From Candidatus Kapaibacterium sp. (GTDB lineage Bacteria; Bacteroidota; Ignavibacteria; Palsa-1295): a stretch of DNA of 64,000 bases. A program made the translations under genes and the position numbers. The DNA is taken from the NCBI GenBank assembly GCA_017882165.1, contig JADGPZ010000001.1:43529-107528 (forward strand). The letters are read 5' to 3'. Below, piece after piece: positions 13,588 through 45,647 of the stretch; the first letter of the stretch is position 1, and each line of letters starts with the position of its first letter. The notes beneath the pieces were generated by a model. That model was not told the DNA's origin. It made no database searches and saw only the letters and a list, made by a program, of their open reading frames with translations.

Positions 13588-14607
<1,020 letters not shown>

Positions 14608-16736: not shown

Positions 16737-16767
16737 ACTTAATCAAAGATTCAATTCGGCAAAAGGC

Positions 16768-27178: not shown

Positions 27179-27184
27179 CAGCGA

Positions 27185-27652: not shown

Positions 27653-27655
27653 TTC

Positions 27656-28906: not shown

Positions 28907-28914
28907 CCGCGAGG

Positions 28915-30963
28915 TTATTCGAACATAGAGACTTTCGCAAATCGCCGTTCTCCGCTCTCGGACTGAAACACGACGAAATACACTCCTGCCGGAAGCGGCC
29001 CCGTGATGTAGTTGGCGATTCCAGCTTGTGCTTGTGAAGAATAGAAGCACCGGCCATCCGAGCGATAGACATAAACGCTTCCCCGCTCCGAAGGCGGAGT
29101 GATGGTGATACGTCCGCGATTGGCATACGCTTTGAGCGGTTCTTCGGAATGCATTGGCCAGGGTTGAACCCCAGCGGAAGCTGCGCTCTTCAAAACAACA
29201 ACGGTTCCATCGTCACATCCTATAGCGACGTTGCCAGTGACGGCATTTAGTGCGGCTGAAGTGATCTTCTCACCTGCATAGTATATCGAGTCTACTATTT
29301 TCCCAGTGTAGCAATCGAAGATTCTTACGATTGAGTCCGTTAGCGGAGGAATTGCCACGTTCCTATCTCCTGGCATGAGTACCATTCCATACAGCCATGG
29401 GTTGCCCGAAACAGTCGCCACTGTCAAGCTGTCATTGTCAAGATTATGAATCTCAAATTGATATGGTGCAGCGCGGCCAAAAACGATTCTCCTGTCATCG
29501 GACGTAAATTCAGCCGACAACAAAAAGCCCGTATAAGGAATGGTCTTCATTCTCTGATGAGTCAACCGATCCCAAATTACAAAATCACTTCCCTCGGGAA
29601 CCCCAATCATTTCACCGGAATGAGAATAACACGCGAAAGTAGCAGCATGGGCGATATCGTAGCGGTGAATGATCTCTAAGCTCTTGGCGCTCCATTCGAA
29701 CATTTCTCCAGATTCCGAAGTCGTTACAAAGGAAGTGTCATCCGGGGAGAATGTTGCAGACCAGATGTTGCCGGTATGACCAAATAACACCTGCGCCGAG
29801 TCTGAGGCTTTCGACCAAAATCTCAAAGTATCGCTGTTTGCGGAGACGATAAAGGAAGCGTCGCGGGAAACCGAGAGGCACGATTGAACGCTATCGCAGG
29901 TGAGCAGCCTCTTTCTGATCCCAGATTGCGCTTCCCACACCATGATGGATTGATCGCGAGAAGAGCTTACGAGCCAATTCCCATCAGGAGAAAATGCAAT
30001 ATTGCGTATAGTCCAATTGTGTGAATTCAGTGACCCAAGGTAAGTCCGCTGCAAGATCGAGTAAAGCGAAACGTCGCTTCCACCCGTGACAACGATTGTG
30101 TCAATGCCAATAAACGAAAGGAGCGTTGCGCCCATCGGAGTTTGAATCAGTGCCACAGAGGAATCCGACGGCTTCATTAATTGGATTCCGCCAATGATGG
30201 CTGCTGCTATAATCTGTCTGCCGGGACTATAGGCAATAGCATTATTATCAGCCTCGGTAGAGAGAGGCCACTGACACGCCACAGTACCCGATGTATCCAG
30301 TACGAACAGGCCATGATCTTCAACGTAAATCTGATCTGATCTCAATGGAGAAAATCCGAGAGCTGACGGAGGATTTAAGAATTGCGCATACCGATGAATG
30401 ATGTGATGAGATGCAACGTCAATGAGTTCAACGCTTCGATTTATCCCGGTGAGAAGAGATCGGCCGTCAGGGCTGAAGCGAACTGGACCCTGCACATTCG
30501 ACCATGTGCCAACCTCTGCGGCATTTCCTCTGTCAAAAAGGTGCAAGATCCAATCATCCGTGATGTAAGCGATGAGGTTGCCGTTAGGAGTTGCATCCAG
30601 AGACAGCACTGTGTTGTTGGCCCAATTGACCACTTGGGCATAGGTGTTCTTGAACGGGTTCCAAGAAACGATCCCTTGACCTCCTGCAAGCAGTTCCGAG
30701 TCGCTTTCGAGAAAAGCCGAACACTTCCCAAGCCCGACAAGCCCATAACGATTTCGCTGCGCCCGCTCACCAGATTTGAGGGACCAATAGCCTCCTTCGC
30801 CATTCAAACTTGCAGTGAAGACACTCTGATCGCGTTCCGATGCGGAAATGCACGTAACAATATCACTCGGCCCAGAGACGCGAGACCACAGAACGTCCCA
30901 GCCGCTCTGAGCGGAGGCGACATCCGCCAAGAATAGTGAAATTATGGCAAGCAGTATCTTCAA
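28915..30963 (-). CDS. WD40/beta-propeller repeat protein with T9SS C-terminal sorting domain
   Basis: Signal peptide; many SxDG/SPDG blade repeats; C-terminal VYVYRSDGRCFYS...GVYFVVFQSESGERRFAKV CTD; visibly lower GC than flanks. Confidence 0.72.
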   Translation of the reverse strand: MKILLAIISLFLADVASAQSGWDVLWSRVSGPSDIVTCISASERDQSVFTASLNGEGGYWSLKSGERAQRNRYGLVGLGKCSAFLESDSELLAGGQGIVSWNPFKNTYAQVVNWANNTVLSLDATPNGNLIAYITDDWILHLFDRGNAAEVGTWSNVQGPVRFSPDGRSLLTGINRSVELIDVASHHIIHRYAQFLNPPSALGFSPLRSDQIYVEDHGLFVLDTSGTVACQWPLSTEADNNAIAYSPGRQIIAAAIIGGIQLMKPSDSSVALIQTPMGATLLSFIGIDTIVVTGGSDVSLYSILQRTYLGSLNSHNWTIRNIAFSPDGNWLVSSSRDQSIMVWEAQSGIRKRLLTCDSVQSCLSVSRDASFIVSANSDTLRFWSKASDSAQVLFGHTGNIWSATFSPDDTSFVTTSESGEMFEWSAKSLEIIHRYDIAHAATFACYSHSGEMIGVPEGSDFVIWDRLTHQRMKTIPYTGFLLSAEFTSDDRRIVFGRAAPYQFEIHNLDNDSLTVATVSGNPWLYGMVLMPGDRNVAIPPLTDSIVRIFDCYTGKIVDSIYYAGEKITSAALNAVTGNVAIGCDDGTVVVLKSAASAGVQPWPMHSEEPLKAYANRGRITITPPSERGSVYVYRSDGRCFYSSQAQAGIANYITGPLPAGVYFVVFQSESGERRFAKVSMFE

Positions 30964-31033
30964 TTCAGTGCTTGATGCAAGCGATTAAGCAATACCGCCC
31001 TACTCGTGTAGAGAGATGCGTTTGAAATTCAAT

Positions 31034-31477
31034 CTACTTCCCCGGCTTCGTGCTCTCGAAGAAGCGGATGTTCGCGTCGATGCGATCATCATTTCCATAT
31101 AACCTCAACCAAACCCGAATCAATAATCTCCTCGTCGGGGTCAGGATTGGGATACCAAGCACGCGCGCGGTCGAGACGATCAGCCGGTCACGGAGCTCGA
31201 GTCCGAGAACATTCTGAGCTTCCAAGATAACCGGGAGATCGATATCTACTAAGCGATAGTTGGTCAGTGCCGAGAGCTTCTCGGTAAATTGGGCAAGGTT
31301 TAGAGGAATCCTACCTTTCTCCGATAGATACAGGATTTCCGCAACGGTCATGATCGATACCGCAATTCTGTTCTTCCCGCGATCCGCCGATTGAAGTAAT
31401 AACTTCGCTCTCTCGGGAATCGACCCTGTTCGAGAGAAGTGGCGAACGATCGTAACAGTATCGGCTAAGAACTCCAC
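31034..31477 (-). CDS. PIN-domain toxin (VapC-like); C-terminal ~25 aa are a diverged duplicate of the MlaD-like C-terminus
   Basis: MEFLADTVTIV (N-terminal Asp), ...VAEIL, LRDRLIVSTARVLGIPILT PIN motifs. Confidence 0.6.
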   Translation of the reverse strand: MEFLADTVTIVRHFSRTGSIPERAKLLLQSADRGKNRIAVSIMTVAEILYLSEKGRIPLNLAQFTEKLSALTNYRLVDIDLPVILEAQNVLGLELRDRLIVSTARVLGIPILTPTRRLLIRVWLRLYGNDDRIDANIRFFESTKPGK

Positions 31478-31725
31478 CGATCACATTTATTAAGAAGGTG
31501 CTCGGATGATTCCTTCCTCAGCTTGCGGACTTCCCCTTCCAGATCGCCAAATTGCTCCCAGCCGAGGCCTTCCCAAATCCCTTCCAACGATTCGACGTTA
31601 CTCGGAGCGGGACGAATGTTCCTAAGGAGCGTTCTGATGAACTCCCGCACTTCCGCAAGCTTGTCGGCCGGGAGGTTCGCGAGATCGCGCTTAATCTCGG
31701 TGAGTTCAATAGCTCTCGGAGTCAT
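31465..31725 (-). CDS. type II antitoxin (DUF2281-like, VapB-type partner)
   Basis: 13-nt overlap with PIN gene; LPADKLAEVREFIRTLL and C-terminal GIWEGLGWEQFGD typical of DUF2281-like antitoxins. Confidence 0.5.
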   Translation of the reverse strand: MTPRAIELTEIKRDLANLPADKLAEVREFIRTLLRNIRPAPSNVESLEGIWEGLGWEQFGDLEGEVRKLRKESSEHLLNKCDRWSS

Positions 31726-31815
31726 ACAATCTAAACGAGCCCTTTGCGGGGAAGTTCGGATACGCGTTTGGACACGAACCGACGAAAGGCGTTAACATAG
31801 GCAGATAAAACGCCG

Positions 31816-32754
31816 CTACTTCACTGGTTTCGAGCTATTGAACAGCCGAACGTTCGCGTCGAGGCCCTGGAGGCGGAGTTGCTCCATGAGTTTGAGGAGG
31901 GAGGCGACGGTGCTGTCCAAACGGTTGGCGAATTGCTCGTCCTTCGTCAGACGGTAGAGCAATGTGTTGGGCTTGTCGGCGCTTGCAAGAAGACTGTCGA
32001 GGCGCACGGCTAACCGGTTCGCACGAATGAGCGCCGTGCGTGCCTCGCCCACGGCCATCGATCCGGTGTCGATCAAAGTCTTGAGACCCGCTCTGTTCTC
32101 CGCAAGCATGTGTGTGAGATCGCGCGTCGCAGTGTCGGCCTGCGCAAATGTGTGCCGGATCGCTGTGCCGTTCTCGTCAAGCAGTGCGGATGCGCGCTTC
32201 GCGATCTGATTGACACTCACCAGCGTGGCGCTCAGTTCGTTCTTGATGGTATCGCCCCTGAACATACTGTTGAGCGCCGTGAACAGCGTGTCCCCTTTGA
32301 CGACGAGCGATTCAAGTGTTGCCGAAAGCGAGTTGACCATCGCGACGAGTGTACTGACATCGCCGGCATAGATCCCGTGCATGATCTTATTGGGCGGCCA
32401 CTTCCCGGTATCCACGCCGGATTTGATCTCGACCTTCTTTCCGCTCATGAGTTCGAGCATGGAAATCTGTATGGATGCATCCTTGCGCAAATCGACCGAC
32501 GAGTCAAAGTCCATCGAGACCATGACGTCCGTATCGCGCGGTGTCACCGCGTGGACGAGGCCACGCTTAATGCCGTTCACCATGACCGGATCGCCGGCCG
32601 CGAGGCCGCCGGCGGTCGGGAAGACCGCCCGGACGACAACCTCATTCGGGCCAAAATGCCAGCTTTTCCCCCACAGAATGCCAAAAAGCATCAGCGCGAC
32701 TGCCACAAGCACCGTCGCGCCTACCTTAATGTCCGTTCGCTCTTCTTTAGTCAC
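31816..32754 (-). CDS. MCE-family protein (MlaD-like outer-membrane lipid asymmetry component)
   Basis: N-terminal TM then MCE domain (VRAVFPTAGGLAAGDPVMVNGIKRGLV...), long helical C-terminus. Confidence 0.82.
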   Translation of the reverse strand: MTKEERTDIKVGATVLVAVALMLFGILWGKSWHFGPNEVVVRAVFPTAGGLAAGDPVMVNGIKRGLVHAVTPRDTDVMVSMDFDSSVDLRKDASIQISMLELMSGKKVEIKSGVDTGKWPPNKIMHGIYAGDVSTLVAMVNSLSATLESLVVKGDTLFTALNSMFRGDTIKNELSATLVSVNQIAKRASALLDENGTAIRHTFAQADTATRDLTHMLAENRAGLKTLIDTGSMAVGEARTALIRANRLAVRLDSLLASADKPNTLLYRLTKDEQFANRLDSTVASLLKLMEQLRLQGLDANVRLFNSSKPVK

Positions 32755-33124
32755 GATACAACTAACGAGATTATCTGAACAATCACTTCACCGGCAATTC
32801 CGCCGAGGCGATCCCGCCGGGCCGAGCAACTCGGTTAGCTGCTCCGCCTGCGCGCGGTTCTTGGAGGAATAGGAGATGAAGATGTCAGACATAGTGCCAG
32901 TGAACCAGCACAAAGTTACGGCAGTCGAATTCTTCCCGCGCAAAAAGCATTTTACCGGGTTCGGGATTACCACCTCACACTTTTCCACCTTTTTCCGCTT
33001 GGCTAAGACCGTTCGTAAGTCGAGATCGAAAGCTGTGGCTCCGCCACCGAATGGAGACGCGGCCAGGACCATCGCCCACGATGGGGCCGCGCCACGCGAT
33101 TCAGGGGTGCCACGCGATCTTGCC

Positions 33125-35956
33125 ATGCCGCGCGTGCTGCCCTCTGCAAAGCGGCCCATCTCCGTCAAGGGCGCACGGCTGCACAACCTGAAGAATCTCT
33201 CGCTCGATTTGGAGCGGAACAAGATGCACGTCTTCACCGGCGTGAGCGGCTCGGGGAAGTCGTCGCTGGCGTTCGATACGCTGTATGCCGAGGGCCAGCG
33301 CCGGTACGTCGAGAGCCTTTCGGTCTATGCGCGGCAGTTCCTGGAGCGGATGCAGAAACCGGAGGTCGATTCGATCACCGGCATCAGTCCGGCGGTGGCA
33401 ATCGAGCAGAAGACGACGACGCGCAATCCGCGCTCGACCGTGGCGACGCAGACCGAGATCTACGATTACCTCCGGCTGCTCTTCGCCCGTGTTGGACACA
33501 CCTATTGCATTCGCTGCGGGCGATTAGTGCGGAAGGACACGCCGCAGTCGGTGATCGAATCGATCCGACAGCGCGCGCGCGAGGGCCAGAAGTTCTATGT
33601 GCTCTTCCCGATGCACCGTCACGAGCAGCATACCCTGGGCGAGGAGTGGGACAATCTCCGGCAGCAAGGATACTTCCGCATCGTGCTGCAAGGCGAAGAG
33701 CGCATACTCGATCTCTCCGAAGAGAATCCAAAGCAGATCGAACCGGGGACCGTGCGCATTCTCATCGACCGGCTCGTCTGGCGTGCCGATGACGAGGGTC
33801 TCGCCTCACGCATTGCGGACTCGATCGAGACTGCCTTCCGTGAGAGTGGCGGCCGCACGATCATCGCGTATCTGGATGGTGATGGCTCGACGCACGAGGA
33901 GTTGTTCTCGGAATTGTTCGAGTGCGCGAACGATGGACTTGCGTACGAAGAGCCGGAGCCACGACTGTTTTCCTTCAACAATCCGTATGGCGCGTGCCCC
34001 GAGTGTCAGGGGTTTGGCCGCGCCATCGGCATCGATCCCGATCTTGTCGTGCCGGATCAAGGCCGTACGATCCGCGGTGGCGCGATCGTCTGCTGGGCTG
34101 GCTCAAAATTTTCCGAATACAATCGCGAACTGATCGCCATTGCGAAGGAGGCGGGTGTGAGAGTCGATGTTCCATTCAGTTCGCTGACGGAGCACGAGCG
34201 CGGAATCGTTTGGGGTGGCTATGGCCGCTACGTCGGCATTACTGGATTCTTCACCGAGCTCGAACAGCAAACGTACAAACTGCACTACCGCGTGATGCTC
34301 TCACGGTTTCGCGGCTATACCACCTGTCCCAAATGCCACGGCTCGCGCCTGCGGCCTGCCTCGATGAATGTGCGCATCGGCAGCACCGATGGGCCATCGG
34401 ACAAAACGATCCACGACATCGTCCGTATGACGACGCGCGAGGCGCGGCGCTTCTTCGAAGAGCTTACACTCCCGGAATACGAGCAGACCATCGCGGCGCG
34501 CATTCTGGACGAACTGCGCAAACGCACGCGATACTTAGATGAAGTGGGCCTCAGCTATCTGACGCTGGAGCGGCTATCGAGCACGCTCTCGGGTGGCGAA
34601 TCGCAACGCATTAATCTTGCCACATCGCTTGGCGGCGCGCTCGTCGGCGCACTCTATGTGCTCGATGAGCCAACAATCGGTCTGCACCAGCGCGACACGG
34701 CCAAGCTGCTTGCAATTCTGCACCGCGTCCGCGATCTCGGCAACACAGTAATCGTTGTCGAGCACGATGAAGAGGTGATTCGCGCTGCCGATCAAGTTGT
34801 CGATTTCGGACCGCTGGCTGGCGAGCTTGGTGGCGAGATTCTATTTCAAGGGCCGGTGGCCAGTCTGCTCGCCGATAAGAAGAGCAGGTCGCTCACGGGA
34901 AAATATCTCCGCCGCGAGCGTGAGATCGCCGTGCCGATTAAGCGGCGGCGCATCGACCCGAGATATGCCATCATTGTACACGACACGAGCGAACATAACC
35001 TGAAGGATCTGACTGTTTCATTTCCATTAGAGTCGTTCGTCGTAGTAACCGGAGTGTCCGGTTCTGGTAAGTCGACACTCGTTCACTCAGTGCTCTATTC
35101 CGGACTGAAGAAGCTGAAGGGCGAAAGCGTCGGACCGGTCGGCTCGCACCGCGAGATTGAAGGCGCCGATTTCGTGAAGCATGTCGAGTTGGTAGATCAA
35201 ACACCAATTGGCCGCACGCCTCGCTCGAATCCGGCAACCTACGTGAAGGTCTTCGATCTGATTCGCGAAGCGTTCAGTCGGACGGTGTATGCGAAGCAGC
35301 GCAACTGGGCGCCGGGATATTTTTCGTTCAACATTCCGGGCGGCCGCTGCGAGGCGTGCCAAGGCGAGGGATTCGTCAAAGTCGAGATGCAATTCCTGGC
35401 AGACATGTATCTGCTTTGCGACTCCTGCGGTGGCAAGCGATACAAACAGGAAGTTCTGGACGCGACGCTGGACGGCAAGAACATAGTTGATGTGCTCGGC
35501 ATGACCATGACCGACGCAATCGTGTTTTTCGAGGAACACGACCGCATCCGCCGACGCCTGCAAGTCCTCGATGATGTTGGACTCGGTTACATGCGCCTCG
35601 GCCAGCCGGCCACGACGCTCTCCGGCGGCGAGGCGCAGCGCGTGAAGCTCGCCGCGCATCTTGTGGACGAAGCCGAGGAGCACACGCTCTTTATCTTCGA
35701 TGAACCAACGACCGGACTCCACTTCGATGACATTGCGAAGCTACTCGCCGCGCTGAATGCCTTGATCGAGCGCGGCCACTCCGTGATCGCCATCGAGCAC
35801 AATCTCGATGTCGTGAAGACCGCCGACTGGGTGATCGATCTCGGTCCCGATGCGGGCGCGGATGGTGGCGAGATCGTCGCGGTAGGAACGCCGGAGACGA
35901 TTGCGAAAGCGGAACGGTCGTATACGGGGAAGTACCTTGCACCCTTGCTTGCATAA
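33125..35956 (+). CDS. uvrA: excinuclease ABC subunit A
   Basis: Two ABC ATPase modules ([28 protein letters not shown]; [11 protein letters not shown]), zinc-finger Cys pairs; start set at [24 protein letters not shown] rather than longest ORF. Confidence 0.95.
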
Positions 35957-35971
35957 TAAATCACCGCAATC

Positions 35972-36310
35972 ATGAAATTCATGTTGTTCATTTTCGTCGG
36001 ATTGATTATCTTATCGATCGTCAATCTGATGTTCCTTCTTAATAACGGTCCAAGTCTCGCTTATTTGCTGGTTTTTTACAATGACATCATTCTGATCGGC
36101 GCGTTTCTCATATTCGCGTTTGTCAAGTCGATGCGTACTTTGCGAAAATACAATTACGGGATTCTGTTGCTCCTGTGCGCTGCAGTTTATTTCCTCGACA
36201 AAGGTTCGAACGACACGATTCAGAAAGCAGCGATTGCATTCTCATTGGCGATCATTGCTCTTCAAATCATAGAAGCCATAGTGTTTCGTAAAGCGAAGAT
36301 TCATATCTAA
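35972..36310 (+). CDS. hypothetical small integral membrane protein (low-GC gene)
   Basis: Three to four hydrophobic helices; ~42% GC versus ~60% flanks; stop overlaps relic lpxB ATG (TAATG). Confidence 0.45.
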   Translation: MKFMLFIFVGLIILSIVNLMFLLNNGPSLAYLLVFYNDIILIGAFLIFAFVKSMRTLRKYNYGILLLLCAAVYFLDKGSNDTIQKAAIAFSLAIIALQIIEAIVFRKAKIHI

Positions 36311-36357
36311 TGACTCGTTCGATCATGCTCATTGCCGGCGAGGCCTCCGGCGACCGG
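36310..36357 (+). pseudogene. relic duplicate of the lpxB 5-prime end (first 16 codons, MTRSIMLIAGEASGDR) followed by frame loss
   Basis: ~85% nt identity to 36922..36969 (true lpxB start MTRNIMLIAGEASGDR). Confidence 0.6.
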
Positions 36358-36395
36358 AATAAGAACGAGATCTGGCCCTTGGATGTTGCCCAGTC

Positions 36396-36614
36396 ATGCT
36401 CCCCTCTATCGAAGCCATCGTCGAAAAAGACGGACGAATTCGTCCCCTCGAACGCGTGAATGTGCGTGAGGGTACGCATGCAATTGTGACGTTCCTATCG
36501 GAGCCGAATGAATTGGTTCGCAACGACACGGCTCTGCTGAGCGAAGCGGCGCTCTCCGATTGGAACAGACCGGAAGAAGACGAAGCATGGGCCTATTTGC
36601 AAAAGGGTCGATAG
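36396..36614 (+). CDS. type II antitoxin, DUF104-like N-terminus
   Basis: IEAIVEKDGRIRPLERVNVREGTHAIV matches DUF104 antitoxin pattern; overlaps downstream toxin gene. Confidence 0.5.
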   Translation: MLPSIEAIVEKDGRIRPLERVNVREGTHAIVTFLSEPNELVRNDTALLSEAALSDWNRPEEDEAWAYLQKGR

Positions 36615-36925
36615 TTCTCGTCCCTTATCCTTTTAGCGATCTTTCTGGAACAAAGCTGAGGCCCGCGCTGGTCTTGGCTGAAGTGTCGTTCAATGATTAT
36701 GTGTTTTGCCAAATAACCACAAAACCGTATGGAGCGAAGCATGTTGTCCCGATTAAACCTGAGCTAAACCCACAATCGGGGCTTCACGCGTTAAGCTACC
36801 TGAGGCCGGAAAAAGTCTTTACTGGCAACGAAAATCTCATTCTCGAACAGATTGGAGTTTTGGAAGAACGTACTGTTGAAGAAGTTGTGGACTCCATTAC
36901 TGCAATTCTTCGCTCTGGGCGATGA
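36587..36925 (+). CDS. MazF/PemK-family endoribonuclease toxin
   Basis: GSIVLVPYPFSDLSGTKLRPALVL hallmark N-terminus; stop overlaps lpxB ATG (ATGA). Confidence 0.72.
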   Translation: MGLFAKGSIVLVPYPFSDLSGTKLRPALVLAEVSFNDYVFCQITTKPYGAKHVVPIKPELNPQSGLHALSYLRPEKVFTGNENLILEQIGVLEERTVEEVVDSITAILRSGR

Positions 36926-38088
36926 CCCGCAACATCATGCTCATTGCCGGGGAAGCATCCGGCGACCGGATTGCGGCGCGGGCCATACGCGCGGTGAATG
37001 CGCTTGCGCGTGAGCGGGGCATTCTGGCGAGCGTATATGGTATTGCGGGGGATGAGTGCGCGGCGGAAGGTGTCGAGTATTTACACACGGCGCGTGAGAT
37101 GTCGGTCGTTGGCTTCGTCGAGGTTGCGCGGCGGTTTCGGTTCTTCCGTAACGTGCTGCGGGAGATGACGGAGTTGCTCGACACTCGGCGGCCCGATGTG
37201 CTCTTGCTCGTCGATTATCCGGGCTTTAACATCCGACTCGCGCGGGAGGCGAAGAAGCGTGGCATCCGGGTCGTCTATTATGTGAGTCCGCAAGTTTGGG
37301 CATGGCATGCCTCGCGCATTGACGTGCTGAGGGAAGTTGTGAATGAGATGCTCGTCGTGTTTCCGTTCGAGGAGTCGTTATACCACGAACATGGACTGAC
37401 AAACGCGCACTTTGTCGGTCATCCGCTCGTCGAGCGCATCGAAGAAGAGCGTTCAGCATTCCGCTCGCGCGAATTATTTGCGAGCGCCTACGGGCTTGAC
37501 GCATCTCGCGAGTGGCTGCTTGTATTTTCCGGCAGCCGGAGAGAGGAAGTGCGAAGATTGCTGCCGGTGATGGCAAACGCGGCTGGTCTCTTTGCGGCAA
37601 AACACTATCTTCAGCCAATCCTGGTAGAATCCGAAGCAATCGAGGAGAATCGATATGACCTATCGGTCGGATCCGACCAATCAGACCGATCCACGGAGAT
37701 TGTACGTTTCCGCGACGCGAAAGCGACCCACGAGCTAATGTCTCACGCCGCACTGGGTCTGCTCAAGAGCGGTACGACTACGCTGGAGGCAGCGCTGCTG
37801 GGGCTGCCCGGCATCATTGTCTACAAAACCCATCCTGTTTCCTTCGCGATTGGCAAGCGGGTTGTGAAATTGCAGTATATTGGGCTGGCTAATATCGTGC
37901 TGGGACAGAAGCTGTATCCTGAGTTATTGCAACATGATGTAACAGTGAACAAGATAGTGGACGAGTTGGACGAAGTATGGAGACGCGCTGACAGCTTTCG
38001 AGAATCGCTTCATGGCCTGGCCGATAGTTTGCGTGGCCCTGCACCCGGACCGTCGCGCCGTGTGGCGGAAACATTACTGGCCGGATGA
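36922..38088 (+). CDS. lpxB: lipid-A-disaccharide synthase
   Basis: N-terminal IMLIAGEASGD and family-wide conservation (LLLVDYPGFN, YYVSPQVWAW). Confidence 0.92.
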   Translation: MTRNIMLIAGEASGDRIAARAIRAVNALARERGILASVYGIAGDECAAEGVEYLHTAREMSVVGFVEVARRFRFFRNVLREMTELLDTRRPDVLLLVDYPGFNIRLAREAKKRGIRVVYYVSPQVWAWHASRIDVLREVVNEMLVVFPFEESLYHEHGLTNAHFVGHPLVERIEEERSAFRSRELFASAYGLDASREWLLVFSGSRREEVRRLLPVMANAAGLFAAKHYLQPILVESEAIEENRYDLSVGSDQSDRSTEIVRFRDAKATHELMSHAALGLLKSGTTTLEAALLGLPGIIVYKTHPVSFAIGKRVVKLQYIGLANIVLGQKLYPELLQHDVTVNKIVDELDEVWRRADSFRESLHGLADSLRGPAPGPSRRVAETLLAG

Positions 38089-38651
38089 TCGAGCGATTGC
38101 TTCCACTCTTCGCAACACTGCTTGCGCGGACACTGCGGATTCGCTGGAGTGGCGAGCGGCTCCCGGCGCGCGCAATCGTTATGTTCTGGCATGGCAAGAT
38201 GTTCGCCGGATGGTATGCTGTTCGCGGGCGATGTCCCGTCGCGCTGGTGAGCCGGAGCAAGGATGGCACGTACTTATCGAGCGTTCTTCAACAGTGGGGA
38301 TACAAACTCTCGCGTGGATCGAGCGGCAAGCGAGGGATGGAAGCACTCGATGAAGCAATCCGAATGCTGAGCGAGAGCGAGGCCGATACCCTTGCGATTA
38401 CGCCTGATGGCCCGCGTGGTCCAAGGCACATCTTCAAGCGAGGCGCATTCATCGCCGCGCGTGAGACGGGACTGCCGCTTTACATGCTCAACGTTCAGTA
38501 TCATCGCAAAGTAGTGTTGAAGAAGAGTTGGGATATGTTTGAAGTGCCGTTGCCATTCTCGAAAGTGGATGTTAGAGTGGACAAAGTGGACTTGATGGAC
38601 CAATTGGACGATCAGACGCTCGAAAGAATTTCTCGTCCCTTTGCCGTATGA
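38085..38651 (+). CDS. DUF374-domain (lysophospholipid acyltransferase-like) protein
   Basis: Pattern typical of DUF374 proteins found beside Kdo transferase/lpx genes; overlaps lpxB and lpxK by 4 nt. Confidence 0.65.
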   Translation: MIERLLPLFATLLARTLRIRWSGERLPARAIVMFWHGKMFAGWYAVRGRCPVALVSRSKDGTYLSSVLQQWGYKLSRGSSGKRGMEALDEAIRMLSESEADTLAITPDGPRGPRHIFKRGAFIAARETGLPLYMLNVQYHRKVVLKKSWDMFEVPLPFSKVDVRVDKVDLMDQLDDQTLERISRPFAV

Positions 38652-39691
38652 CTGCCATCTTCGATTACCTCAATCCTTATGCGTATGCCATGCGTCTGCG
38701 GCGCAAGCTGTATGAGCGCGGCACACTTCGCTCTTCGCATCCCGGCGTTCCGGTGATCAGCATTGGCAATCTCTCGCTCGGCGGGACGGGCAAATCGCCG
38801 ATGGTGCTGTTGGTCGCACGCTACCTTATGAGCCAGCGCGGCAAACGTGTCGCCATCGTCTCGCGCGGATACAAACGACGCTCCAAAGGCTTTGTGCTCG
38901 TCAGCGATGCGCGTCGCGTGTTGGCAACAGTCGATAACTCTGGCGACGAAGCGCAGATGTTCGCACAGAGTCTGCCCGGCGCAATTGTGATCGTCAGCGA
39001 AGACCGGACGCGTGGCGCAAAGGAAGCGAAGCGGCTTGGCGCGGAGGTGATCCTGCTCGACGATGGTTTCCAACATCAACACCTGCAGCGCGATTTGAAT
39101 ATCGTGCTGATCGATGCCGAGCGTCCTCTTTCAGCCGTCATTCCCTTTGGCCGGTTTCGCGAGCCATTCAGCGCAGTGCGCGCGGCGGATGCGATTGTAT
39201 TCACCAATGCCGGCGACAAGTTCGTCATGAGAAATCACTGGGACCGCCTGAAACCGTACCTGCGACCCAACGTGATCGCGGCAGCGGTCTGGTCGACTCC
39301 TCAGTCGCTTCATCACATTGCGAGCGGTGTGCCATTCCCGCTGGATGATTTGAGGGCGAAGCGTGTCATCGCATTTTCGAGTATTGCTTCGCCCGCAAGA
39401 TTCCATCGAATGCTCGAACGCTTGGGCGCGGAAGTCATCGCCCGCGAACTGGGCGATCACGCCGAGTATACACAAGCATTTGCGACGACGCTCATGCGCG
39501 ACGCCGAACGCTCTGGTGCTCAAATCCTTGTGACGACCATGAAGGACGCCGTCAAGTGCCGCGGCCTTTTTGAACGCGTGGGGGGCGCCGTCCCCGGCGC
39601 CCCTCCACTTCCGGTCTTCGTTCTCAAGCAAGAACTCGAATTCTTGAGCGGCGAGCAAAGTTTACATGATGCCATTGATTCCACTCTATGA
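38648..39691 (+). CDS. lpxK: tetraacyldisaccharide 4-prime-kinase
   Basis: P-loop GNLSLGGTGKSP and LpxK family conservation. Confidence 0.9.
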   Translation: MTAIFDYLNPYAYAMRLRRKLYERGTLRSSHPGVPVISIGNLSLGGTGKSPMVLLVARYLMSQRGKRVAIVSRGYKRRSKGFVLVSDARRVLATVDNSGDEAQMFAQSLPGAIVIVSEDRTRGAKEAKRLGAEVILLDDGFQHQHLQRDLNIVLIDAERPLSAVIPFGRFREPFSAVRAADAIVFTNAGDKFVMRNHWDRLKPYLRPNVIAAAVWSTPQSLHHIASGVPFPLDDLRAKRVIAFSSIASPARFHRMLERLGAEVIARELGDHAEYTQAFATTLMRDAERSGAQILVTTMKDAVKCRGLFERVGGAVPGAPPLPVFVLKQELEFLSGEQSLHDAIDSTL

Positions 39692-41387: not shown

Positions 41388-41492
41388 AGTGCTATGGTGC
41401 TGAAGTGCTTCTTACACTTTGCGTGAGATCTGCTTTAGACCCTTAACGCCTTAGCTAAGCACTTTAGCACTTTTAGCACTTCATTACTTCTC

Positions 41493-41681
41493 TCAGGCCG
41501 CAGGCTCTTCCTTCGTCTTCATCTCCTGGACTTCCTTGCGGATTTCCTGCGCTTTTCGCTTGATTTCATTCATCGCCTTGCGAATGCGCGTGCCAGCGGA
41601 CTTATTGCTCTTATCGTAAAACTTCTCGAAATCCTTCTCGAAGCTGACGAGCAGGTCCTGTAATTCCTTAAAACGGTTCAT
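41493..41681 (-). CDS. histone H1-like small DNA-binding protein (Bacteroidota type)
   Basis: 62 aa, Lys/Glu-rich helical; FEKDFEKFYDKSNKSAGTRIRKAMNEIKRKAQEIR matches the Bacteroidota histone-H1-like family. Confidence 0.6.
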   Translation of the reverse strand: MNRFKELQDLLVSFEKDFEKFYDKSNKSAGTRIRKAMNEIKRKAQEIRKEVQEMKTKEEPAA

Positions 41682-41879
41682 CTTATTGCCTCCTATTTGT
41701 CGTATTTATGCACAAAACTATCTGATGGAAACCCTGCCGGGGCCGGCCGAATTCCCAGTGGATGAGCGATCATCCACCTCAGAACTGTATTCTAATCGCT
41801 AAAATACGAGATTCTTAGAGCAAAAGCAAGTGCCCGGGCCGAAAAATCGCGAATTTCGTGGGATTGATTGCAATCGGAA

Positions 41880-41970: not shown

Positions 41971-44154
41971 TTAGTACTTCCCTACTAATACTTCGATCAC
42001 GCCAGTGCCGGATCCAGAGAAATTCCCGAGTGACTTGCCGAGTGCCTGGCCGATCTGGAGTTTGCTCAGGTCAGCCTTCATCGCATGACCCGGTGTCGAA
42101 GAAGTCACCAGCAGATCGCCGGCGAAAATCGGGCCGTTCTCGGAAGTCACCTTCGTCGGAATGACACCGATGATGCCGAGCGGCACCTTTGCGGAGTGGT
42201 CTCCATCCATCATCACGTTTGTGAGGATCACTCCGGGTTTCGTCGCATAGACACCGGCAACGAGTCGCGAGTATGGCTCGGAGGACTTCTCGACAAGGCG
42301 ATCGCCAGCGCGCGAAATCACGAGCACATCACCTGCCGCGTAACTCGCTCGGTCGCCCGGCACATCGAATTCTTCCGCCACGTCGGCACCGCCGGTCTGC
42401 GTGCCGCCGTTGAAGAAGCCTTTGCCGGTCCGGTCGATCCGCGCGACGTGCGCGCCCGCCGACTCGAAGATCGCGCAGTTGTTACCATTAACGGTCGAGA
42501 TCGTCGAGCCGAGCATGTTTACGATCAATGCGTTGCACGTAGTGCCAACGGATGCTGCTTCAGCCAGAACGCCAGTACCACCCTGCCAGCCGAGACCATG
42601 CACACCATTGCCGGTGCCATCGGCCTCACCGTAGATCGCGTCTCCGTTTCCATTGGTGACACCCTCGATCGCAATCCCGCCCGTCTCCGTTCGGCCATAG
42701 ACGCCGATGCCGTTGCCCATACTGTGTCCATAAACGCCGACGCCATTTCCGTTGGCACCGTGGTTGATGCCACACACACCAGCGGCCAAGAGGGATGGAG
42801 TGGCAGAGGTCACTTCACCCTGGACTCCAACCGCATTGGCAGTAGAGCTGGTCTGCCCAAGAATCGCTGGGTTCGTGCTCGTCGTCGAGCTTGCAACCGC
42901 TTTGATGGCATTGCCCAACCCGGGATTATTGACTTCGACCGCGTTCGCGGTCGAGGCGGAGTTGGTGACCTCGAACAGGCCGGCACGAGCTGTTAGGGCA
43001 CCGGCACCAGTAGTGCCATAAATTCCCACACCACTATTAGACACAGCCCCCTCGACTCCATAACCGGAATTGGTCAATCCCGCGACCCCACGGGCCGTGG
43101 AAGAGCCTCCAAAGACGCCAGAGTTCGTCAGGACTCCGACGCCACTTCCATCGGATGTAAGGCCAAGCACACCGATGCCGGTCGCGCTCGTTGTGCTCCC
43201 GTTCACCCCCGCCATCGCCGCCGCGCTTGCCCCGCCGCTGATGGCCGCGCCAGCCCCAGAATTTGTGATGTCAAATAGTGTTGAACTCGATGACATCGTG
43301 TTCGAGTATGGCAACGAAAAGACGCTCGGCGTGACCCACGTCGCGCCACCCGACCCATTGGCCGCAAGCACCTGACCAATGGTCGCGGAACCCGATCCCA
43401 CCACGGCATTTGTCACAGCGCCGGCTGCGATCTTGGCCGTCGTGACAGCGCCAGCCGCGAGCTTCGCGTTCGTGACAGCATTATCCGCCAAACTAATCGT
43501 CGCCGTCGGTCCCGTCGGTCCGACAATGCTGATCGTCCCATCGATATTCTGGACGCCGAGGATTCCCGTTCCACTGCCGCCGGTGGAGCTGATGGTGACC
43601 GTGTATCCGTTGCTGGAAATTGTGGTCCCGCCAGAGCCGGCAAGAGTCAGGCTACCCGAGAGACCATTAATCGACCGCACGACGCCGGTTGCAAGTGGGG
43701 CAAGGGCGAGTGCGGTCCCAGCCAGGCGCGAGGAGTCCGCAACACGGCTGGTCCACGCTGTCGCGGCGGCGCCGAGTTTAGAACGTGGCGTCAACTCCGC
43801 GCCGCCTTCGATCGCGACGCCGAGGAAATAATCCGCTGCGGGACGCACGACACCGCCGACATCGCCGGCGTCAAACATCGGCAGCGGATTCGCATGGTCC
43901 GCGCCGAGTGTCGCGTTGAATATTCCATTAGTGAAGGTAACGGACTGCGTCTCCGTGTGGAGTGCGGTGCCGCCGGTTGCGGCAGCATAGATCGCAAGCG
44001 TCACGCTGTGCGGTCCCGAGACCGCAGTGCCGCTGCTCGTCACCGATCCCTGATAAGAGATGACTTGCTGTGCGTTAGATGATGATGATTGAAGTGCCTG
44101 GAGTACGAAGGCTCCAAGAACGAACACGAATGCGCGTAGCTGATGTGTTTTCAT
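41971..44154 (-). CDS. large secreted glycine-rich repeat protein (beta-helix/tail-fibre-like repeats, distinct C-terminal domain, no T9SS CTD)
   Basis: Signal peptide; dozens of G-x-G-V/I-x-G repeats (GVGVYGHSMGNGIGVYG...), conserved C-terminal ~150 aa. Confidence 0.65.
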   Translation of the reverse strand: MKTHQLRAFVFVLGAFVLQALQSSSSNAQQVISYQGSVTSSGTAVSGPHSVTLAIYAAATGGTALHTETQSVTFTNGIFNATLGADHANPLPMFDAGDVGGVVRPAADYFLGVAIEGGAELTPRSKLGAAATAWTSRVADSSRLAGTALALAPLATGVVRSINGLSGSLTLAGSGGTTISSNGYTVTISSTGGSGTGILGVQNIDGTISIVGPTGPTATISLADNAVTNAKLAAGAVTTAKIAAGAVTNAVVGSGSATIGQVLAANGSGGATWVTPSVFSLPYSNTMSSSSTLFDITNSGAGAAISGGASAAAMAGVNGSTTSATGIGVLGLTSDGSGVGVLTNSGVFGGSSTARGVAGLTNSGYGVEGAVSNSGVGIYGTTGAGALTARAGLFEVTNSASTANAVEVNNPGLGNAIKAVASSTTSTNPAILGQTSSTANAVGVQGEVTSATPSLLAAGVCGINHGANGNGVGVYGHSMGNGIGVYGRTETGGIAIEGVTNGNGDAIYGEADGTGNGVHGLGWQGGTGVLAEAASVGTTCNALIVNMLGSTISTVNGNNCAIFESAGAHVARIDRTGKGFFNGGTQTGGADVAEEFDVPGDRASYAAGDVLVISRAGDRLVEKSSEPYSRLVAGVYATKPGVILTNVMMDGDHSAKVPLGIIGVIPTKVTSENGPIFAGDLLVTSSTPGHAMKADLSKLQIGQALGKSLGNFSGSGTGVIEVLVGKY

Positions 44155-44571
44155 GGCAAACCGATTAAGTTGTTACCAAATGGTGGAGTACAAATATAGT
44201 CAATCCCGACGCGTTATGCAAGTCCCGCCTCGCGCGGCGGAGATTCCTGGGATGGCGAGGCGCTTACTCTGCGGCTGCTGTTGGAACGGCAGATCATCGA
44301 CACCTCGTTCTGGGATGACGATGAAGACGATTGCACTACTGCGGAGAGGCAAAAAAGTGCCGAAAACCGTGGATGATCGTGAGATCACCCATGATCTCAC
44401 ATCACCCACGAAAGCCCCCAAGCGCCGGAAGGCGAAGGCGGGTATACACAGTCCCGAGCTGACGGCCAAGCTGCGGAAGGCGCTGGAAGATATCGAGCAG
44501 GATCGCGTCCATACCGTCGATCCGAACAATCACCGCGACGGGTTCAAGGAGTTGCTCAAAAAGAAGAAGCC

Positions 44572-45054: not shown

Positions 45055-45071
45055 AGGCTACAAAGATACGG

Positions 45072-45123
45072 CGTTCTCGCTCTTGCCTGCGCGAGCGCTC
45101 CGGATATTCTTAGGATGGCGAGG
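45072..45123. repeat. ~52-bp direct repeat R1 flanking the rhuM fragment
   Basis: CGTTCTCGCTCTTGCCTGCGCGAGCGCTCCGGATATTCTTAGGATGGCGAGG versus R2 at 45576..45631. Confidence 0.7.
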
Positions 45124-45215
45124 GGCTTGCGCTGCGTCTGATGTTTACTCCGTCGTGCGTTTCCGAGCGATTGCCCGCAAATGTCGTATATTTACATCGA
45201 TAGTAATAGGCACCC

Positions 45216-45575: not shown

Positions 45576-45631
45576 CGCTCTCGCTCGTTCTTGTCTGCGC
45601 GAGCGAACCGGATATTCTTGGGATGGGGAGG
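45576..45631. repeat. ~56-bp direct repeat R2
   Basis: CGCTCTCGCTCGTTCTTGTCTGCGCGAGCGAACCGGATATTCTTGGGATGGGGAGG. Confidence 0.7.
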
Positions 45632-45647
45632 TATCTCAAGAGTCAGA

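What the first reader, a model, noticed from the sequence alone, without database searches (positions are those of the whole stretch)
36310..36969. MazF-type TA cassette inserted at the lpxB start, flanked by a diverged 48-bp direct duplication of the lpxB 5-prime end
Positions 36310..36357 encode MTRSIMLIAGEASGDR and 36922..36969 encode MTRNIMLIAGEASGDR, with ~85% nt identity. The second copy is the genuine lpxB start. The first copy is a dead relic that reads into a frame-shifted stretch and then into the DUF104-like antitoxin and MazF toxin. The MazF stop overlaps the real lpxB ATG (ATGA). The relic ATG overlaps the stop of an upstream low-GC membrane-protein gene (TAATG). Direct repeats of a host-gene segment flanking a cassette are what Campbell-type single-crossover integration of a circular element carrying ~50 bp of lpxB homology would leave. 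This suggests TA cassettes here move by short-homology capture rather than by a transposase or integrase.
Basis: seen in the sequence. Interest (0 to 1): 0.7.

Follow-up and report, generated by a model that had tools for sequence, protein, structure and literature searches.

The report
Toxin-antitoxin pair bracketed by duplicated lpxB start
A small toxin-antitoxin gene pair sits just before the essential lipid A gene lpxB, flanked by two diverged copies of that gene's first 49 bases; a second such case lies 5 kb away and more occur in unrelated metagenomes, so this looks like a recurrent way of adding such cassettes without a recombinase and without breaking the neighbouring gene.

Summary
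36310-36358 and 36922-36970 match at 41 of 49 nt (15/16 aa), against at most 28/49 in 300 shuffles. Both stop/start overlaps (TAATG, ATGA) are as described. Kapabacteria relatives have uvrA directly followed by lpxB, so the MazEF-type pair and the low-GC orphan membrane gene are both insertions.

New findings:
- A second case lies 5 kb upstream. A VapBC-like pair downstream of mlaD is followed by a 50-nt relic of the mlaD 3' end.
- Locus L093 carries a homologous MazEF pair at the same uvrA|lpxB site, with no membrane gene and no relic.
- Bracketing direct repeats occur at 16 of 51 related MazF loci, against 6 of 207 control positions. At least five of the 16 are duplicated host-gene termini, two of them arrays; two are integron attC sites.
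- The repeat copies look like different orthologous alleles, not an in-place duplication that drifted.

Most likely this is the scar of recombination between two allelic versions of the junction, homologous on one side and illegitimate on the other. No integrase or transposase lies nearby.

The closest precedent is 'insertion with long target duplication', described for restriction-modification systems. I rate it a new variant of a known kind, of moderate interest.

The parts
32876..35956 (+). uvrA. The ORF is as listed, but homology to relatives starts near residue 57-88, so the true start is probably near 33100. It is the conserved left flank of the variable junction.
   Evidence: tblastn to L001-L009 at 62-77% identity. 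Its last ~190 nt belong to the block that is identical in L082.
35972..36310 (+). Orphan gene for a 112-aa hydrophobic protein, GC 0.40. It is an insertion relative to all relatives. Its stop overlaps the relic ATG (TAATG).
   Evidence: No Pfam, NCBIfam or PADLOC hit. Only itself found among 5.8 billion proteins. In the 1.84 billion representatives the only other hit is a marginal 40-residue match, E 1.4e-05. Absent from L001-L009, L085, L086 and L093.
36310..36358 (+). Relic copy of the first 49 nt of lpxB (MTRSIMLIAGEASGDR). It opens a dead 49-aa ORF, 36310-36459.
   Evidence: 41/49 to the working copy. 44/50 to the lpxB start of L093. Differences are five synonymous third positions plus one variable codon.
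36359..36395 (+). 37-38 nt spacer between the relic and the antitoxin start. The novel junction lies at 36358/36359.
   Evidence: Weak resemblance to the antitoxin-proximal part of the 83-nt uvrA-antitoxin spacer of L093 (AAGAACGAGAT against ACGAACGACAT). No similarity to the region upstream of the L089 antitoxin. No sigma-70-like promoter found here.
36396..36614 (+). Antitoxin, 72 aa. Its end overlaps the toxin start by 28 nt.
   Evidence: Conserved family with the C-terminal motif ALLSExAL..DWNRPEEDEAW.HLQ (alignment A3). 88% identical to the L089 antitoxin and 82% to that of L093. The AF2212-like Pfam hit is below threshold.
36587..36925 (+). MazF/PemK-type toxin, 112 aa. Its stop overlaps the lpxB ATG (ATGA).
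   Evidence: Pfam PF02452 at 2.8e-09. Carries all 30 invariant residues of alignment A2. MazF fold. Closest homologues are 68% identical.
36922..36970 (+). Working copy of the repeat: the first 49 nt of the functional lpxB.
36922..38088 (+). lpxB (lipid-A-disaccharide synthase), followed by the DUF374 gene (38085-38651) and lpxK (38648-39691) with overlapping stops and starts.
   Evidence: Pfam LpxB 4.9e-80 and DUF374 9.3e-21. Synteny with relatives. No mosaic break against L085 along the gene.
35765..38560 (.). Block that is virtually identical (3 mismatches) in a related lineage (L082) whose flanks differ by 8-17%. This is a recent homologous-recombination transfer of the whole insert.
   Evidence: Mismatch map.
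31816..32754 (-). mlaD. Its last 50 nt (31816-31865) are the working copy of a second repeat.
   Evidence: Pfam MlaD 4e-12. Repeat family D5. 38/50 against a maximum of 27 in shuffles.
31465..31725 (-). VapB-like antitoxin, 86 aa, 90 nt downstream of the mlaD stop.
   Evidence: ORF list. Weak DUF2281 hit, E 0.01. Its end overlaps the start of the PIN ORF.
31086..31477 (-). PIN-domain (VapC-like) toxin with an apparent 1-nt deletion in a C run near 31137-31140. The native stop codons TGATGA are at 31086-31091. As it stands, the ORF reads on into the mlaD relic.
   Evidence: Pfam PIN 3e-08 as found and 8.9e-10 after frame correction. Three-frame translation. The same sequence is in L090.
31034..31083 (-). 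Relic of the mlaD 3' end (IDANIRFFESTKPGK plus stop), 2-5 nt after the native vapC stop.
   Evidence: 38/51 to the working copy and 42/51 to the mlaD end of relative L085. Its residues IRFF and KPGK match the orthologues, not the window's own mlaD.

Best explanation
The 49-nt repeat is most likely the scar of a recombination event between two diverged allelic versions of the same chromosomal junction in a Kapabacteria population.

The two versions:
- One had the orphan membrane gene immediately upstream of lpxB.
- The other had a MazEF-type toxin-antitoxin pair immediately upstream of lpxB, as locus L093 still does.

The event: one end of the exchange used ordinary long homology, in uvrA or in lpxB. 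The other end was joined illegitimately, between base 49 of one lpxB allele and a point 38 nt upstream of the antitoxin. This is homology-facilitated illegitimate recombination, or one-ended break repair followed by end joining.

The result: both inserts were kept. The TA pair stays abutted on the working lpxB. The first 49 nt of the other allele's lpxB remain as a dead stub fused to the membrane gene.

The VapBC pair downstream of mlaD carries the mirror-image scar, a 50-nt stub of another mlaD allele after the toxin. After formation, the whole block spreads between lineages by plain homologous recombination in the flanking core genes.

Shown: the insertion status of both genes, the reality of the repeats, the allele-like nature of the stubs, the recurrence elsewhere, and the recent block transfer.

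Inferred:
- The illegitimate nature of the 36358/36359 junction.
- The direction of the event: TA incoming, or TA resident with the membrane gene incoming. This is unresolved.
- The idea that post-segregational killing removes recombinants that cleanly replace the TA pair, so that scars accumulate next to TA pairs.
For: 1. Relatives have uvrA followed directly by lpxB. In L085 the uvrA stop overlaps the lpxB ATG. So the membrane gene and the TA pair are separate additions to a variable junction. L086 has a methyltransferase at the same point.
2. L093 has a homologous antitoxin (82%) and toxin (67%) between uvrA and lpxB, with no membrane gene and no stub. So the TA-lpxB adjacency exists on its own.
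3. The stubs look like real alleles rather than decayed copies:
   - lpxB: five synonymous differences plus one at a variable residue. P = 0.0009 if all five arose at random on a dead copy.
   - The lpxB stub is closer to the L093 lpxB (44/50) than to the window's own copy (41/49).
   - The mlaD stub is closer to the L085 orthologue (42/51) than to the window's own mlaD (38/51), and keeps orthologue residues.
   - In L096 the two uvrA 3' ends share 55 nt at 87% but have unrelated tails of 9 codons each, which in-place drift cannot give.
4. Only one junction per case is novel. The other edge of each repeat coincides with the start or stop codon, where synteny between the two alleles ends anyway.
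5. No recombinase gene and no attC motifs.
6. Blocks 35765-38560 and 26850-31824 are identical between lineages that otherwise differ by 8-17%. Recombination between diverged lineages is therefore frequent here.
7. [quoted passage not shown]
Against: - Neither parental arrangement (uvrA-membrane gene-lpxB, or a close relative with uvrA-TA-lpxB) was found at high identity. The junction cannot be shown to be illegitimate, and no microhomology can be scored.
- The codon test weakens to P = 0.10 if half of the differences arose on the constrained copy.
- Stub lengths of 49 and 50 nt in the two window cases, and 40-59 nt in several others, are more uniform than random illegitimate joins would predict.
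- In the L152 array, two repeat copies share the same left boundary. That fits recombination at the repeat itself better than independent illegitimate joins.
- By my recollection of the published experiments (not checked here), such events usually delete recipient DNA rather than duplicate it. That fits only the variant in which the TA pair is resident.
Confidence: 0.45

Rival explanations
1. A small circular molecule carrying spacer, antitoxin, toxin and about 49 nt of an lpxB start from another lineage integrated by a single crossover within that short homology. This leaves two hybrid copies. The unit can loop out again by recombination between the copies and enter any genome with a similar gene end.
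For: - The architecture is the same everywhere: repeat - spacer - antitoxin - toxin - repeat, with the toxin stop 0-43 nt from the second copy.
- Arrays of repeat-cassette units occur. In L152 the repeat boundaries coincide. In L144 one TA unit is amplified at 96% over 586 nt.
- Bracketing repeats are strongly enriched around this TA family: 16/51 against 6/207.
- The host gene stays intact wherever the crossover falls.
- A 17-nt identical core exists in the lpxB repeat.
Against: - The copies are only 84% and 76% identical, with at most 17 and 11 identical bases in a row. By general knowledge of RecA, that is far below what it needs for efficient exchange.
- It requires a prior step that makes the circle.
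- L093 shows the same TA family at this site with no repeat.
- No empty site or circle junction was seen. All three contigs carrying the membrane gene also carry the TA pair.
Confidence: 0.25
2. True long target duplication made in place. The cassette entered a staggered break about 49 nt wide in lpxB, fill-in gave two identical copies, and they have since diverged. This is the mechanism class proposed for restriction-modification systems.
For: - Insertions of restriction-modification genes with 46-47 bp and longer target duplications and no mobility genes are documented in several phyla (PMC2853133).
- Repeat lengths here (49, 50, 55, 59 nt) are in that range.
- Some other TA loci have near-identical copies: L171 at 98% over 96 nt and L152 at 98%.
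Against: - The divergence is 16-24%, but confined to synonymous or variable positions in the lpxB stub.
- The mlaD stub is closer to an orthologue in another genome than to its supposed twin.
- The two L096 copies have unrelated C-terminal tails.
- So old an insertion should be shared with L085. That relative's LpxB is 84% identical to the window's over the first 249 aa, and it lacks the insertion.
Confidence: 0.1
3. Remnant attachment sites of an integrative element, or an integron-like cassette moved by a recombinase encoded elsewhere. The element would carry a replacement gene end, as phages that integrate into gene termini do.
For: - Some relatives of this TA pair are genuine integron cassettes flanked by attC sites (L104, L136).
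- By general knowledge, elements that integrate into gene ends carry diverged replacement ends.
Against: - No recombinase gene in the insert or among the identified genes between 27.6 and 41.7 kb.
- The lpxB, mlaD, uvrA and other repeats share no motif.
- No RYYYAAC / GTTRRRY pair in the window repeats.
- The interval between the repeats holds nothing but the TA pair.
Confidence: 0.07

Closest known systems
Insertion with long target duplication of restriction-modification gene complexes (Nobusato et al. 2000, Gene 259:99, cited in PMC3874152; Furuta, Abe and Kobayashi 2010, PMC2853133)
   Same: - An addiction-type gene pair is inserted without any mobility gene.
- It is flanked by direct repeats of more than 30 bp that correspond to a single-copy sequence in a related genome.
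- Repeat sizes of 46-47 bp are reported in Haemophilus influenzae and Thermus thermophilus, some overlapping gene 3' ends.
- Amplification through the repeats is documented for that class, and is seen here in L144.
   Different: - The cargo is a type II toxin-antitoxin pair, not a restriction-modification system. The review PMC3874152 ascribes this mode to restriction-modification systems only.
- The repeats here are much more diverged: 76-88%, against 93% or more for the 46-47-bp cases in Table 2 of that paper.
- They behave as different orthologous alleles.
- DNA breakage by the cargo, the property those authors invoke, is not available to RNA-cleaving toxins.
Sequential displacement of effector-immunity modules in T6SS, Rhs and CDI loci, with orphaned gene ends (Kirchberger et al. 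2017, PMC5361080)
   Same: - A conserved gene serves as the homology anchor.
- An incoming module is added rather than exchanged.
- The displaced terminus of the gene survives as a stub, and arrays build up.
- Homology-facilitated illegitimate recombination is the proposed route.
   Different: - There the displaced end belongs to the toxin gene itself and the retained gene is an immunity gene under direct selection.
- Here the duplicated end belongs to an unrelated housekeeping gene (lpxB, mlaD, uvrA), and the cassette is a self-contained TA pair.
Integron gene cassettes carrying toxin-antitoxin pairs
   Same: - Compact TA cassettes are separated by direct repeats, sometimes in arrays.
- Members of this very MazF family occur as attC-flanked cassettes (L104, L136).
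   Different: - The repeats in the window are coding termini of host genes. They lack the attC motifs; whether they form an attC-like palindrome was not assessed.
- No integrase is nearby.
Resistance of chromosomal addiction modules to allelic replacement (Handa et al. 2001, Mol Microbiol 40:932, cited in PMC3203608; content from my own knowledge)
   Same: Attempts to replace a chromosomal restriction-modification complex by homologous DNA yielded survivors that kept it through duplications and rearrangements. This is the selective filter I invoke for stubs next to TA pairs.
   Different: - It was shown experimentally for a restriction-modification system, not for a type II TA pair.
- It is not tested here.

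Membership tests
MazF/PemK toxin (type II TA) | Sequence match to the PemK_toxin family above the curated threshold | tested here: met
   PF02452, E 2.8e-09, 37.6 bits against a cut-off of 23.1, covering 2-108 of 109 profile positions.
MazF/PemK toxin (type II TA) | MazF/CcdB-type fold | tested here: met
   AlphaFold model with pLDDT 87.1 and pTM 0.80. The top Foldseek PDB hits are all MazF (4me7, 1ne8, 5hkc), TM 0.72-0.76, probability 1.00. Sequence-only searches of the PDB found nothing.
MazF/PemK toxin (type II TA) | Small upstream partner gene overlapping the toxin start and conserved with it | tested here: met
   The 72-aa ORF overlaps the toxin by 28 nt. The same partner family precedes the toxin in L088, L089, L093, L096, L104, L117, L119, L147, L152, L155 and L171.
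MazF/PemK toxin (type II TA) | Sequence-specific endoribonuclease activity neutralised by the partner | not testable with these tools
   Needs expression and cleavage assays.
AF2212-like (DUF104) antitoxin | Match to PF01954 above the curated threshold | tested here: inconclusive
   E 0.0069, 17.2 bits against a cut-off of 21.6, residues 5-32 only. 2 of 11 family members hit.
Insertion with long target duplication (criteria of Furuta et al. 2010) | Insert absent from a related genome whose flanks align | tested here: met
   uvrA is followed directly by lpxB in L001-L007, L009 and L085. mlaD in L085 has no VapBC.
Insertion with long target duplication (criteria of Furuta et al. 2010) | Flanking direct repeats longer than 30 bp that match the single-copy target | tested here: met
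   49 nt (lpxB) and 50 nt (mlaD). Both copies match the single L085 sequence: 40 and 41 of 48, and 42 and 41 of 51.
Insertion with long target duplication (criteria of Furuta et al. 2010) | No other mobile-element genes in the insert | tested here: met
   The insert holds only the TA pair.
Insertion with long target duplication (criteria of Furuta et al. 2010) | Cargo includes restriction and modification genes | tested here: not met
   The cargo is MazEF-like or VapBC-like.
Insertion with long target duplication (criteria of Furuta et al. 2010) | The two copies derive from one target (near-identical) | tested here: not met
   84% and 76% identity, with allele-like differences.
Integron cassette | attC site (RYYYAAC ... 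GTTRRRY imperfect palindrome) at the cassette boundary | tested here: not met
   No such motif on either strand of the four repeat copies. It is present in L104.
Integrative element with attachment-site duplication | Integrase or other recombinase gene in or next to the element | tested here: not met
   Genes from 27.6 to 41.7 kb are ftsW, a WD40 gene, vapC, vapB, mlaD, uvrA, the orphan gene, the antitoxin, mazF, lpxB, the DUF374 gene, lpxK, a GATase gene, a methyltransferase gene and Hc1. The next ORF, 41971-44154, was not scanned against any family library.
Homology-facilitated illegitimate recombination product | One homologous crossover plus one junction at a few bases of microhomology, seen by comparison with both parents | not testable with these tools
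   Neither parental sequence is in the collections searched.

The most novel reading that the evidence does not exclude
Type II toxin-antitoxin pairs may form a recombinase-free, integron-like cassette system in which the start or end of a conserved housekeeping gene (lpxB, mlaD, uvrA and others) serves as the attachment site. Each cassette would travel with, or come to be flanked by, a short foreign allele of that gene end. Arrays of repeat-cassette units would build up, as in L152 and L144. The addictive nature of the cargo would kill recombinants that cleanly replace it, so core-gene boundaries would gather TA pairs and stubs of neighbouring genes.
Probability: 0.3. Interest if true: 0.75.

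Novelty: new variant of a known kind. Interest (0 to 1): 0.55.

Why it matters
How chromosomal toxin-antitoxin pairs move without transposases or integrases is poorly explained. They sit in 'regular' chromosomal positions in most free-living bacteria.

A recurrent signature would give a concrete, testable route:
- short duplicated termini of conserved neighbour genes,
- with allele-level divergence,
- in several unrelated genomic contexts.

It would extend to TA pairs a mode so far described for restriction-modification systems. It would also link addiction to the shaping of core-gene boundaries.

Practical consequences:
- Such stubs create spurious short ORFs and misleading start or stop calls next to essential genes. 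Here a 49-aa false lpxB start, and a PIN ORF that reads into an mlaD stub.
- The stubs mark recombination hot spots that are useful for strain-level population genetics.

Tried and rejected
- **Parental arrangement.** I looked for uvrA-membrane gene-lpxB or an empty site at high identity. Exact look-ups of LpxB, the toxin, the membrane protein, VapB and MlaD found only the same arrangement. No LpxB between 81% and 100% identity exists in the protein collection.
- **Homologues of the membrane protein.** None were found by the word-indexed search. The full HMMER scan gave only a marginal 40-residue match in a 2314-aa protein. Its origin cannot be traced.
- **Closely related mobile copies of the TA pair.** I wanted these to define the cassette ends. 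The best toxin homologue is 68% identical. Nucleotide similarity to L089 begins only at the antitoxin ATG.
- **Other TA pairs in the window.** Two Pfam batches over 20 small ORFs gave only a weak RelE hit. The PIN gene was found in a third batch.
- **Flanking repeats at the nearest TA homologues.** L087-L089 have none of significance.
- **Mosaic break in lpxB or uvrA.** I looked for one that would reveal which part is imported. None is visible against L085, L086 or L093.
- **Repeats found in other fetched loci.**
  - L034 is an internal domain duplication of a GTPase.
  - L055 looks like a repeat pair flanking a separate island (nature not checked).
  - L150 is an antitoxin paralogue.
  - L151 is low-complexity sequence.
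  - L166 appears to be two paralogous genes, transposase-like by eye (not checked).
- **PADLOC and NCBIfam.** No hits for the three inserted genes.
- **Literature.** Searches for TA pairs flanked by target duplications found nothing specific.
Full report
**1. The observation**

36310-36357 and 36922-36969 share 40 of 48 bases. They encode MTRSIMLIAGEASGDR and MTRNIMLIAGEASGDR.
- An independent repeat finder reports them as a 49-nt pair, 36310-36358 and 36922-36970, 84% identical.
- In 300 shuffles of the 1.5 kb upstream of lpxB, the best match to the lpxB start never exceeded 28 of 49. The observed value is 41.
- The second copy begins a 388-aa ORF with a full-length LpxB match.
- The first copy opens a 49-aa ORF that runs out of frame into the antitoxin gene.
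- The stop of the low-GC gene 35972-36310 overlaps the first ATG (TAATG). The toxin stop overlaps the lpxB ATG (ATGA).
- The toxin is a MazF/PemK protein by Pfam (2.8e-09, above threshold) and by fold. The model has pLDDT 87 and its top PDB matches are all MazF at TM 0.72-0.76.
- The antitoxin belongs to a well-conserved family. Its 'DUF104/AF2212-like' label rests only on a sub-threshold hit.
- The same arrangement is found in three other assemblies from public sequencing runs. It is not an assembly artefact.

**2. What relatives look like**

- The window comes from a member of the Kapabacteria, judging by the record titles of the closest loci.
- In nine related genomes the order is uvrA, lpxB, a DUF374 gene, lpxK and a glutamine amidotransferase gene, with uvrA and lpxB a few tens of bases apart or less.
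- The closest relative found is L085, whose LpxB is 81% identical over its full length. There the uvrA stop overlaps the lpxB ATG.
- So two things have been added in the window: the TA pair, and the 112-aa hydrophobic protein gene upstream of the relic.
- That gene has GC 0.40 against 0.56 for the window. It matches no family. It has no convincing homologue among 5.8 billion proteins or 1.84 billion cluster representatives.
- The junction is a hot spot. L086 has a methyltransferase gene inserted at exactly the same place, again with overlapping stops and starts but no duplication.

**3. A second case in the same window**

- Repeat family D5 (31034-31083 and 31816-31865, 38 of 50 bases; shuffle maximum 27) turned out to be the same kind of structure on the minus strand.
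- mlaD (31816-32754) ends ...GLDANVRLFNSSKPVK.
- It is followed after 90 nt by an 86-aa VapB-like ORF and a PIN-domain toxin (Pfam 3e-08).
- A few bases after the toxin's native stop comes a stub reading IDANIRFFESTKPGK plus stop.
- The stub is closer to the mlaD end of L085 (42/51) than to the window's own mlaD end (38/51). It keeps the residues IRFF and KPGK found in the orthologues.
- The PIN gene carries an apparent 1-nt deletion in a C run. Correcting it restores a canonical C-terminus and improves the Pfam score to 8.9e-10. The same sequence is present in an independent assembly.

**4. The same TA family at the same site without a duplication**

- The closest toxin homologues are only 68% identical, but one of them is very informative.
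- L093, from another Kapabacteria assembly, reads: uvrA 3' end, an 83-nt spacer, a 72-aa antitoxin (82% identical), the toxin (67%), 6 nt (stop at 669-671, next ATG at 678), then lpxB.
- It has no membrane gene and no stub.
- LpxB of L093 is 69% identical to that of the window, comparable with the divergence of the TA proteins.
- The window's stub matches the lpxB start of L093 at 44 of 50 bases, slightly better than it matches its own working copy.
- The TA-lpxB adjacency therefore exists on its own in this clade. The duplication in the window marks the joining of a 'membrane gene-lpxB' arrangement with a 'TA-lpxB' arrangement.

**5. Are the copies one sequence that drifted, or two alleles?**

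- For lpxB, the eight differences are five synonymous third-position changes plus all three bases of codon 4, a position that varies among orthologues (T, S, N, K, R).
- If five random substitutions hit a dead copy outside codon 4, all five are synonymous with P = 0.0009. If half of them arose on the constrained copy, P is 0.10. This test alone is therefore suggestive, not decisive.
- The mlaD stub's greater similarity to an orthologue points the same way.
- The clearest case is L096, from an unrelated metagenome. There the working uvrA ends ...VKKSFTGQALAAVLKNGTASLDLES, while the stub after the TA pair reads ...VKKSYTGQALAVVLNNDMQPADSAP.
- Those two share 55 nt at 87%, followed by unrelated nine-codon tails, each with its own stop. 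That is what two orthologous alleles look like, not a duplicated target.

**6. How general is it?**

- A scan of metagenome contigs with a profile of the toxin gave 80 further loci, 40-55% identical.
- I screened for direct repeats with one copy upstream of the antitoxin and one downstream of the toxin (E at most 1e-4).
- The screen hit 16 of 51 loci with enough flank, against 6 of 207 shifted control positions in the same loci.
- The hits are heterogeneous:

| Class | Loci | Detail |
|---|---|---|
| Integron cassettes with attC sites | L104, L136 | Known kind |
| Host-gene terminus duplicated | L096 | uvrA 3' end, 55 nt, 87% |
| | L155 | 5' end of the downstream ORF, 59 nt, 88% |
| | L147 | 3' end of a convergent Rsm22-like methyltransferase gene, 40 nt, 82% |
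| | L158 | 5' end and upstream region of an LRR gene, about 130 nt, 91% (too close to the contig end to count among the 51) |
| Arrays | L152 | Gene end, PIN cassette, same gene end, MazEF cassette, same gene end. About 170-nt units, 92-98% identical, with coinciding left boundaries |
| | L144 | Repeat units, with the TA unit itself duplicated at 96% |
| Non-coding, unknown nature | L113, L117, L119, L148, L171/L172 | |
| Spurious | L150, L151, L166 | |

- Caveat: the controls are random positions, not other accessory genes. The excess cannot yet be called specific to TA cargo.

**7. Spread after formation**

- A related lineage (L082 and L090, from run SRR30681715) differs from the window by 8-17% in uvrA, lpxK and beyond.
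- It is virtually identical over 35765-38560. That block runs from the last 190 nt of uvrA, through the membrane gene, stub, TA pair and lpxB, into the DUF374 gene.
- It is also virtually identical over 26850-31824, from ftsW through the WD40 gene, the mlaD stub, vapC and vapB to the last 9 nt of mlaD.
- Once formed, these composite inserts move between lineages by ordinary homologous recombination in the flanking core genes.

**8. Mechanism**

- No integrase or transposase lies in the inserts or among the identified genes between 27.6 and 41.7 kb.
- The repeats at different genes share no motif and lack attC features.
- In each case only one junction is new: 36358/36359 for lpxB, and the few bases after the vapC stop for mlaD. 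The other edge of the similarity is simply the start or stop codon, where the two allelic arrangements cease to be collinear.
- I therefore favour one homologous and one illegitimate join between two allelic arrangements.
- If the TA pair was resident, as in L093:
  - The event is a textbook case. The anchor is in uvrA.
  - About 400 nt of foreign DNA (the membrane gene plus 49 nt of the donor's lpxB) is inserted.
  - About 45 nt of recipient spacer is lost.
  - A longer donor fragment would have recombined in lpxB and deleted the TA pair. Post-segregational killing would remove such recombinants, which would explain why stubs are short and sit next to addiction modules.
- If the TA pair was the newcomer, the join lies inside the region homologous to the anchor. 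That is less usual.
- I could not decide the direction. W's lpxB is L085-like from its first bases, with no visible mosaic break, and no parental allele is in the databases.
It explains the uniform architecture and the arrays with coinciding repeat boundaries.
- Against it, the circle must cross over in 49-50 nt that are only 76-84% identical, with 11-17 identical bases in a row. It also needs a prior circle-forming step.

**9. Comparison with what is known**

- The nearest described phenomenon is 'insertion with long target duplication' of restriction-modification systems.
  - It involves no mobility genes and direct repeats over 30 bp, including 46-47 bp examples overlapping gene ends, in several phyla.
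  - The repeats can drive amplification (PMC2853133).
  - A later review credits this mode to restriction-modification systems only (PMC3874152).
- The displaced-terminus arrays of T6SS, Rhs and CDI loci, for which homology-facilitated illegitimate recombination was proposed, are the nearest mechanistic parallel (PMC5361080).
- The present cases differ in three ways:
  - the cargo is a type II TA pair;
  - the duplicated sequence is the end of an unrelated housekeeping gene;
  - the copies diverge at allele level.
- My literature searches found no description of this for TA pairs. The library searched is incomplete.

**10. Verdict**

- It is unproven on the specific mechanism. It may also have the direction wrong, since the TA pair may be the older resident.
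- This is a new variant of a known kind.
- Interest is moderate (0.55). It would be higher if a systematic survey shows the pattern to be specific to addiction modules.

Noticed in passing
window 44180-45700: Three copies of a 48-70 nt direct repeat (44213-44282, 45076-45145, 45584-45631; 60-88% identical) separate small ORFs. These include a weak RelE-like ORF (44572-45054, minus strand) and a RhuM-family fragment (45216-45671) whose homology stops just where the third repeat copy begins. This may be another array of repeat-separated cassette fragments. The repeat here is not obviously a gene terminus.
   Followed up: partly
window 13477-13598 and 16630-16753: Two ~120-nt repeat blocks (84-88% identical), 3.15 kb apart, contain the palindromic motif CGTCATTGCGAGGAGCGACGAAGCAATC. 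They look like intergenic repeat elements bracketing the genes between them (families D2 and D3).
   Followed up: no
window 31086-31160 (minus strand): The PIN toxin gene has an apparent 1-nt deletion in a C run (about 31137-31140). As a result the ORF reads past its native TGATGA stop into the mlaD stub, in the stub's own frame. The same sequence is in an independent assembly, so the toxin may be inactivated or altered.
   Followed up: partly
window 32788-32905 (minus strand), between mlaD and uvrA: A short ORF ends with [23 protein letters not shown]... followed by a stop. By eye this resembles the start of a TIR-domain protein, so it may be another gene-start stub in the mlaD-uvrA gap. Relative L085 has a phosphoesterase gene at that position. 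The listed uvrA ORF start (32876) also looks too early, since homology begins near residue 57-88.
   Followed up: no
L086 133-948: A 271-aa methyltransferase gene (GC 0.47) is inserted at exactly the uvrA|lpxB junction in another relative. Its ATG reuses the ancestral ATGA overlap with the uvrA stop, and its TGA overlaps a TTG start of lpxB. There is no duplication.
   Followed up: partly
window 26850-31824, 35765-38560, 41400-41800, 42200-43000 compared with L082 and L090: The window and a related lineage form a mosaic of virtually identical blocks alternating with stretches 8-17% diverged. This indicates frequent homologous exchange between diverged lineages of this organism.
   Followed up: partly
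L152 1-1911 and L144 1600-4600: These are arrays in which copies of the terminal ~170 nt (L152) or ~160-370 nt (L144) of one host ORF alternate with TA cassettes. L152 has a PIN pair and then a MazEF pair. L144 has the same MazEF unit twice, at 96% identity.
   Followed up: partly
L087 and L088 3795-4339: The same MazEF family sits immediately upstream of mutS in two related genomes, with different upstream neighbours and no flanking repeats. In L087 mutS appears broken into several ORFs.
   Followed up: no
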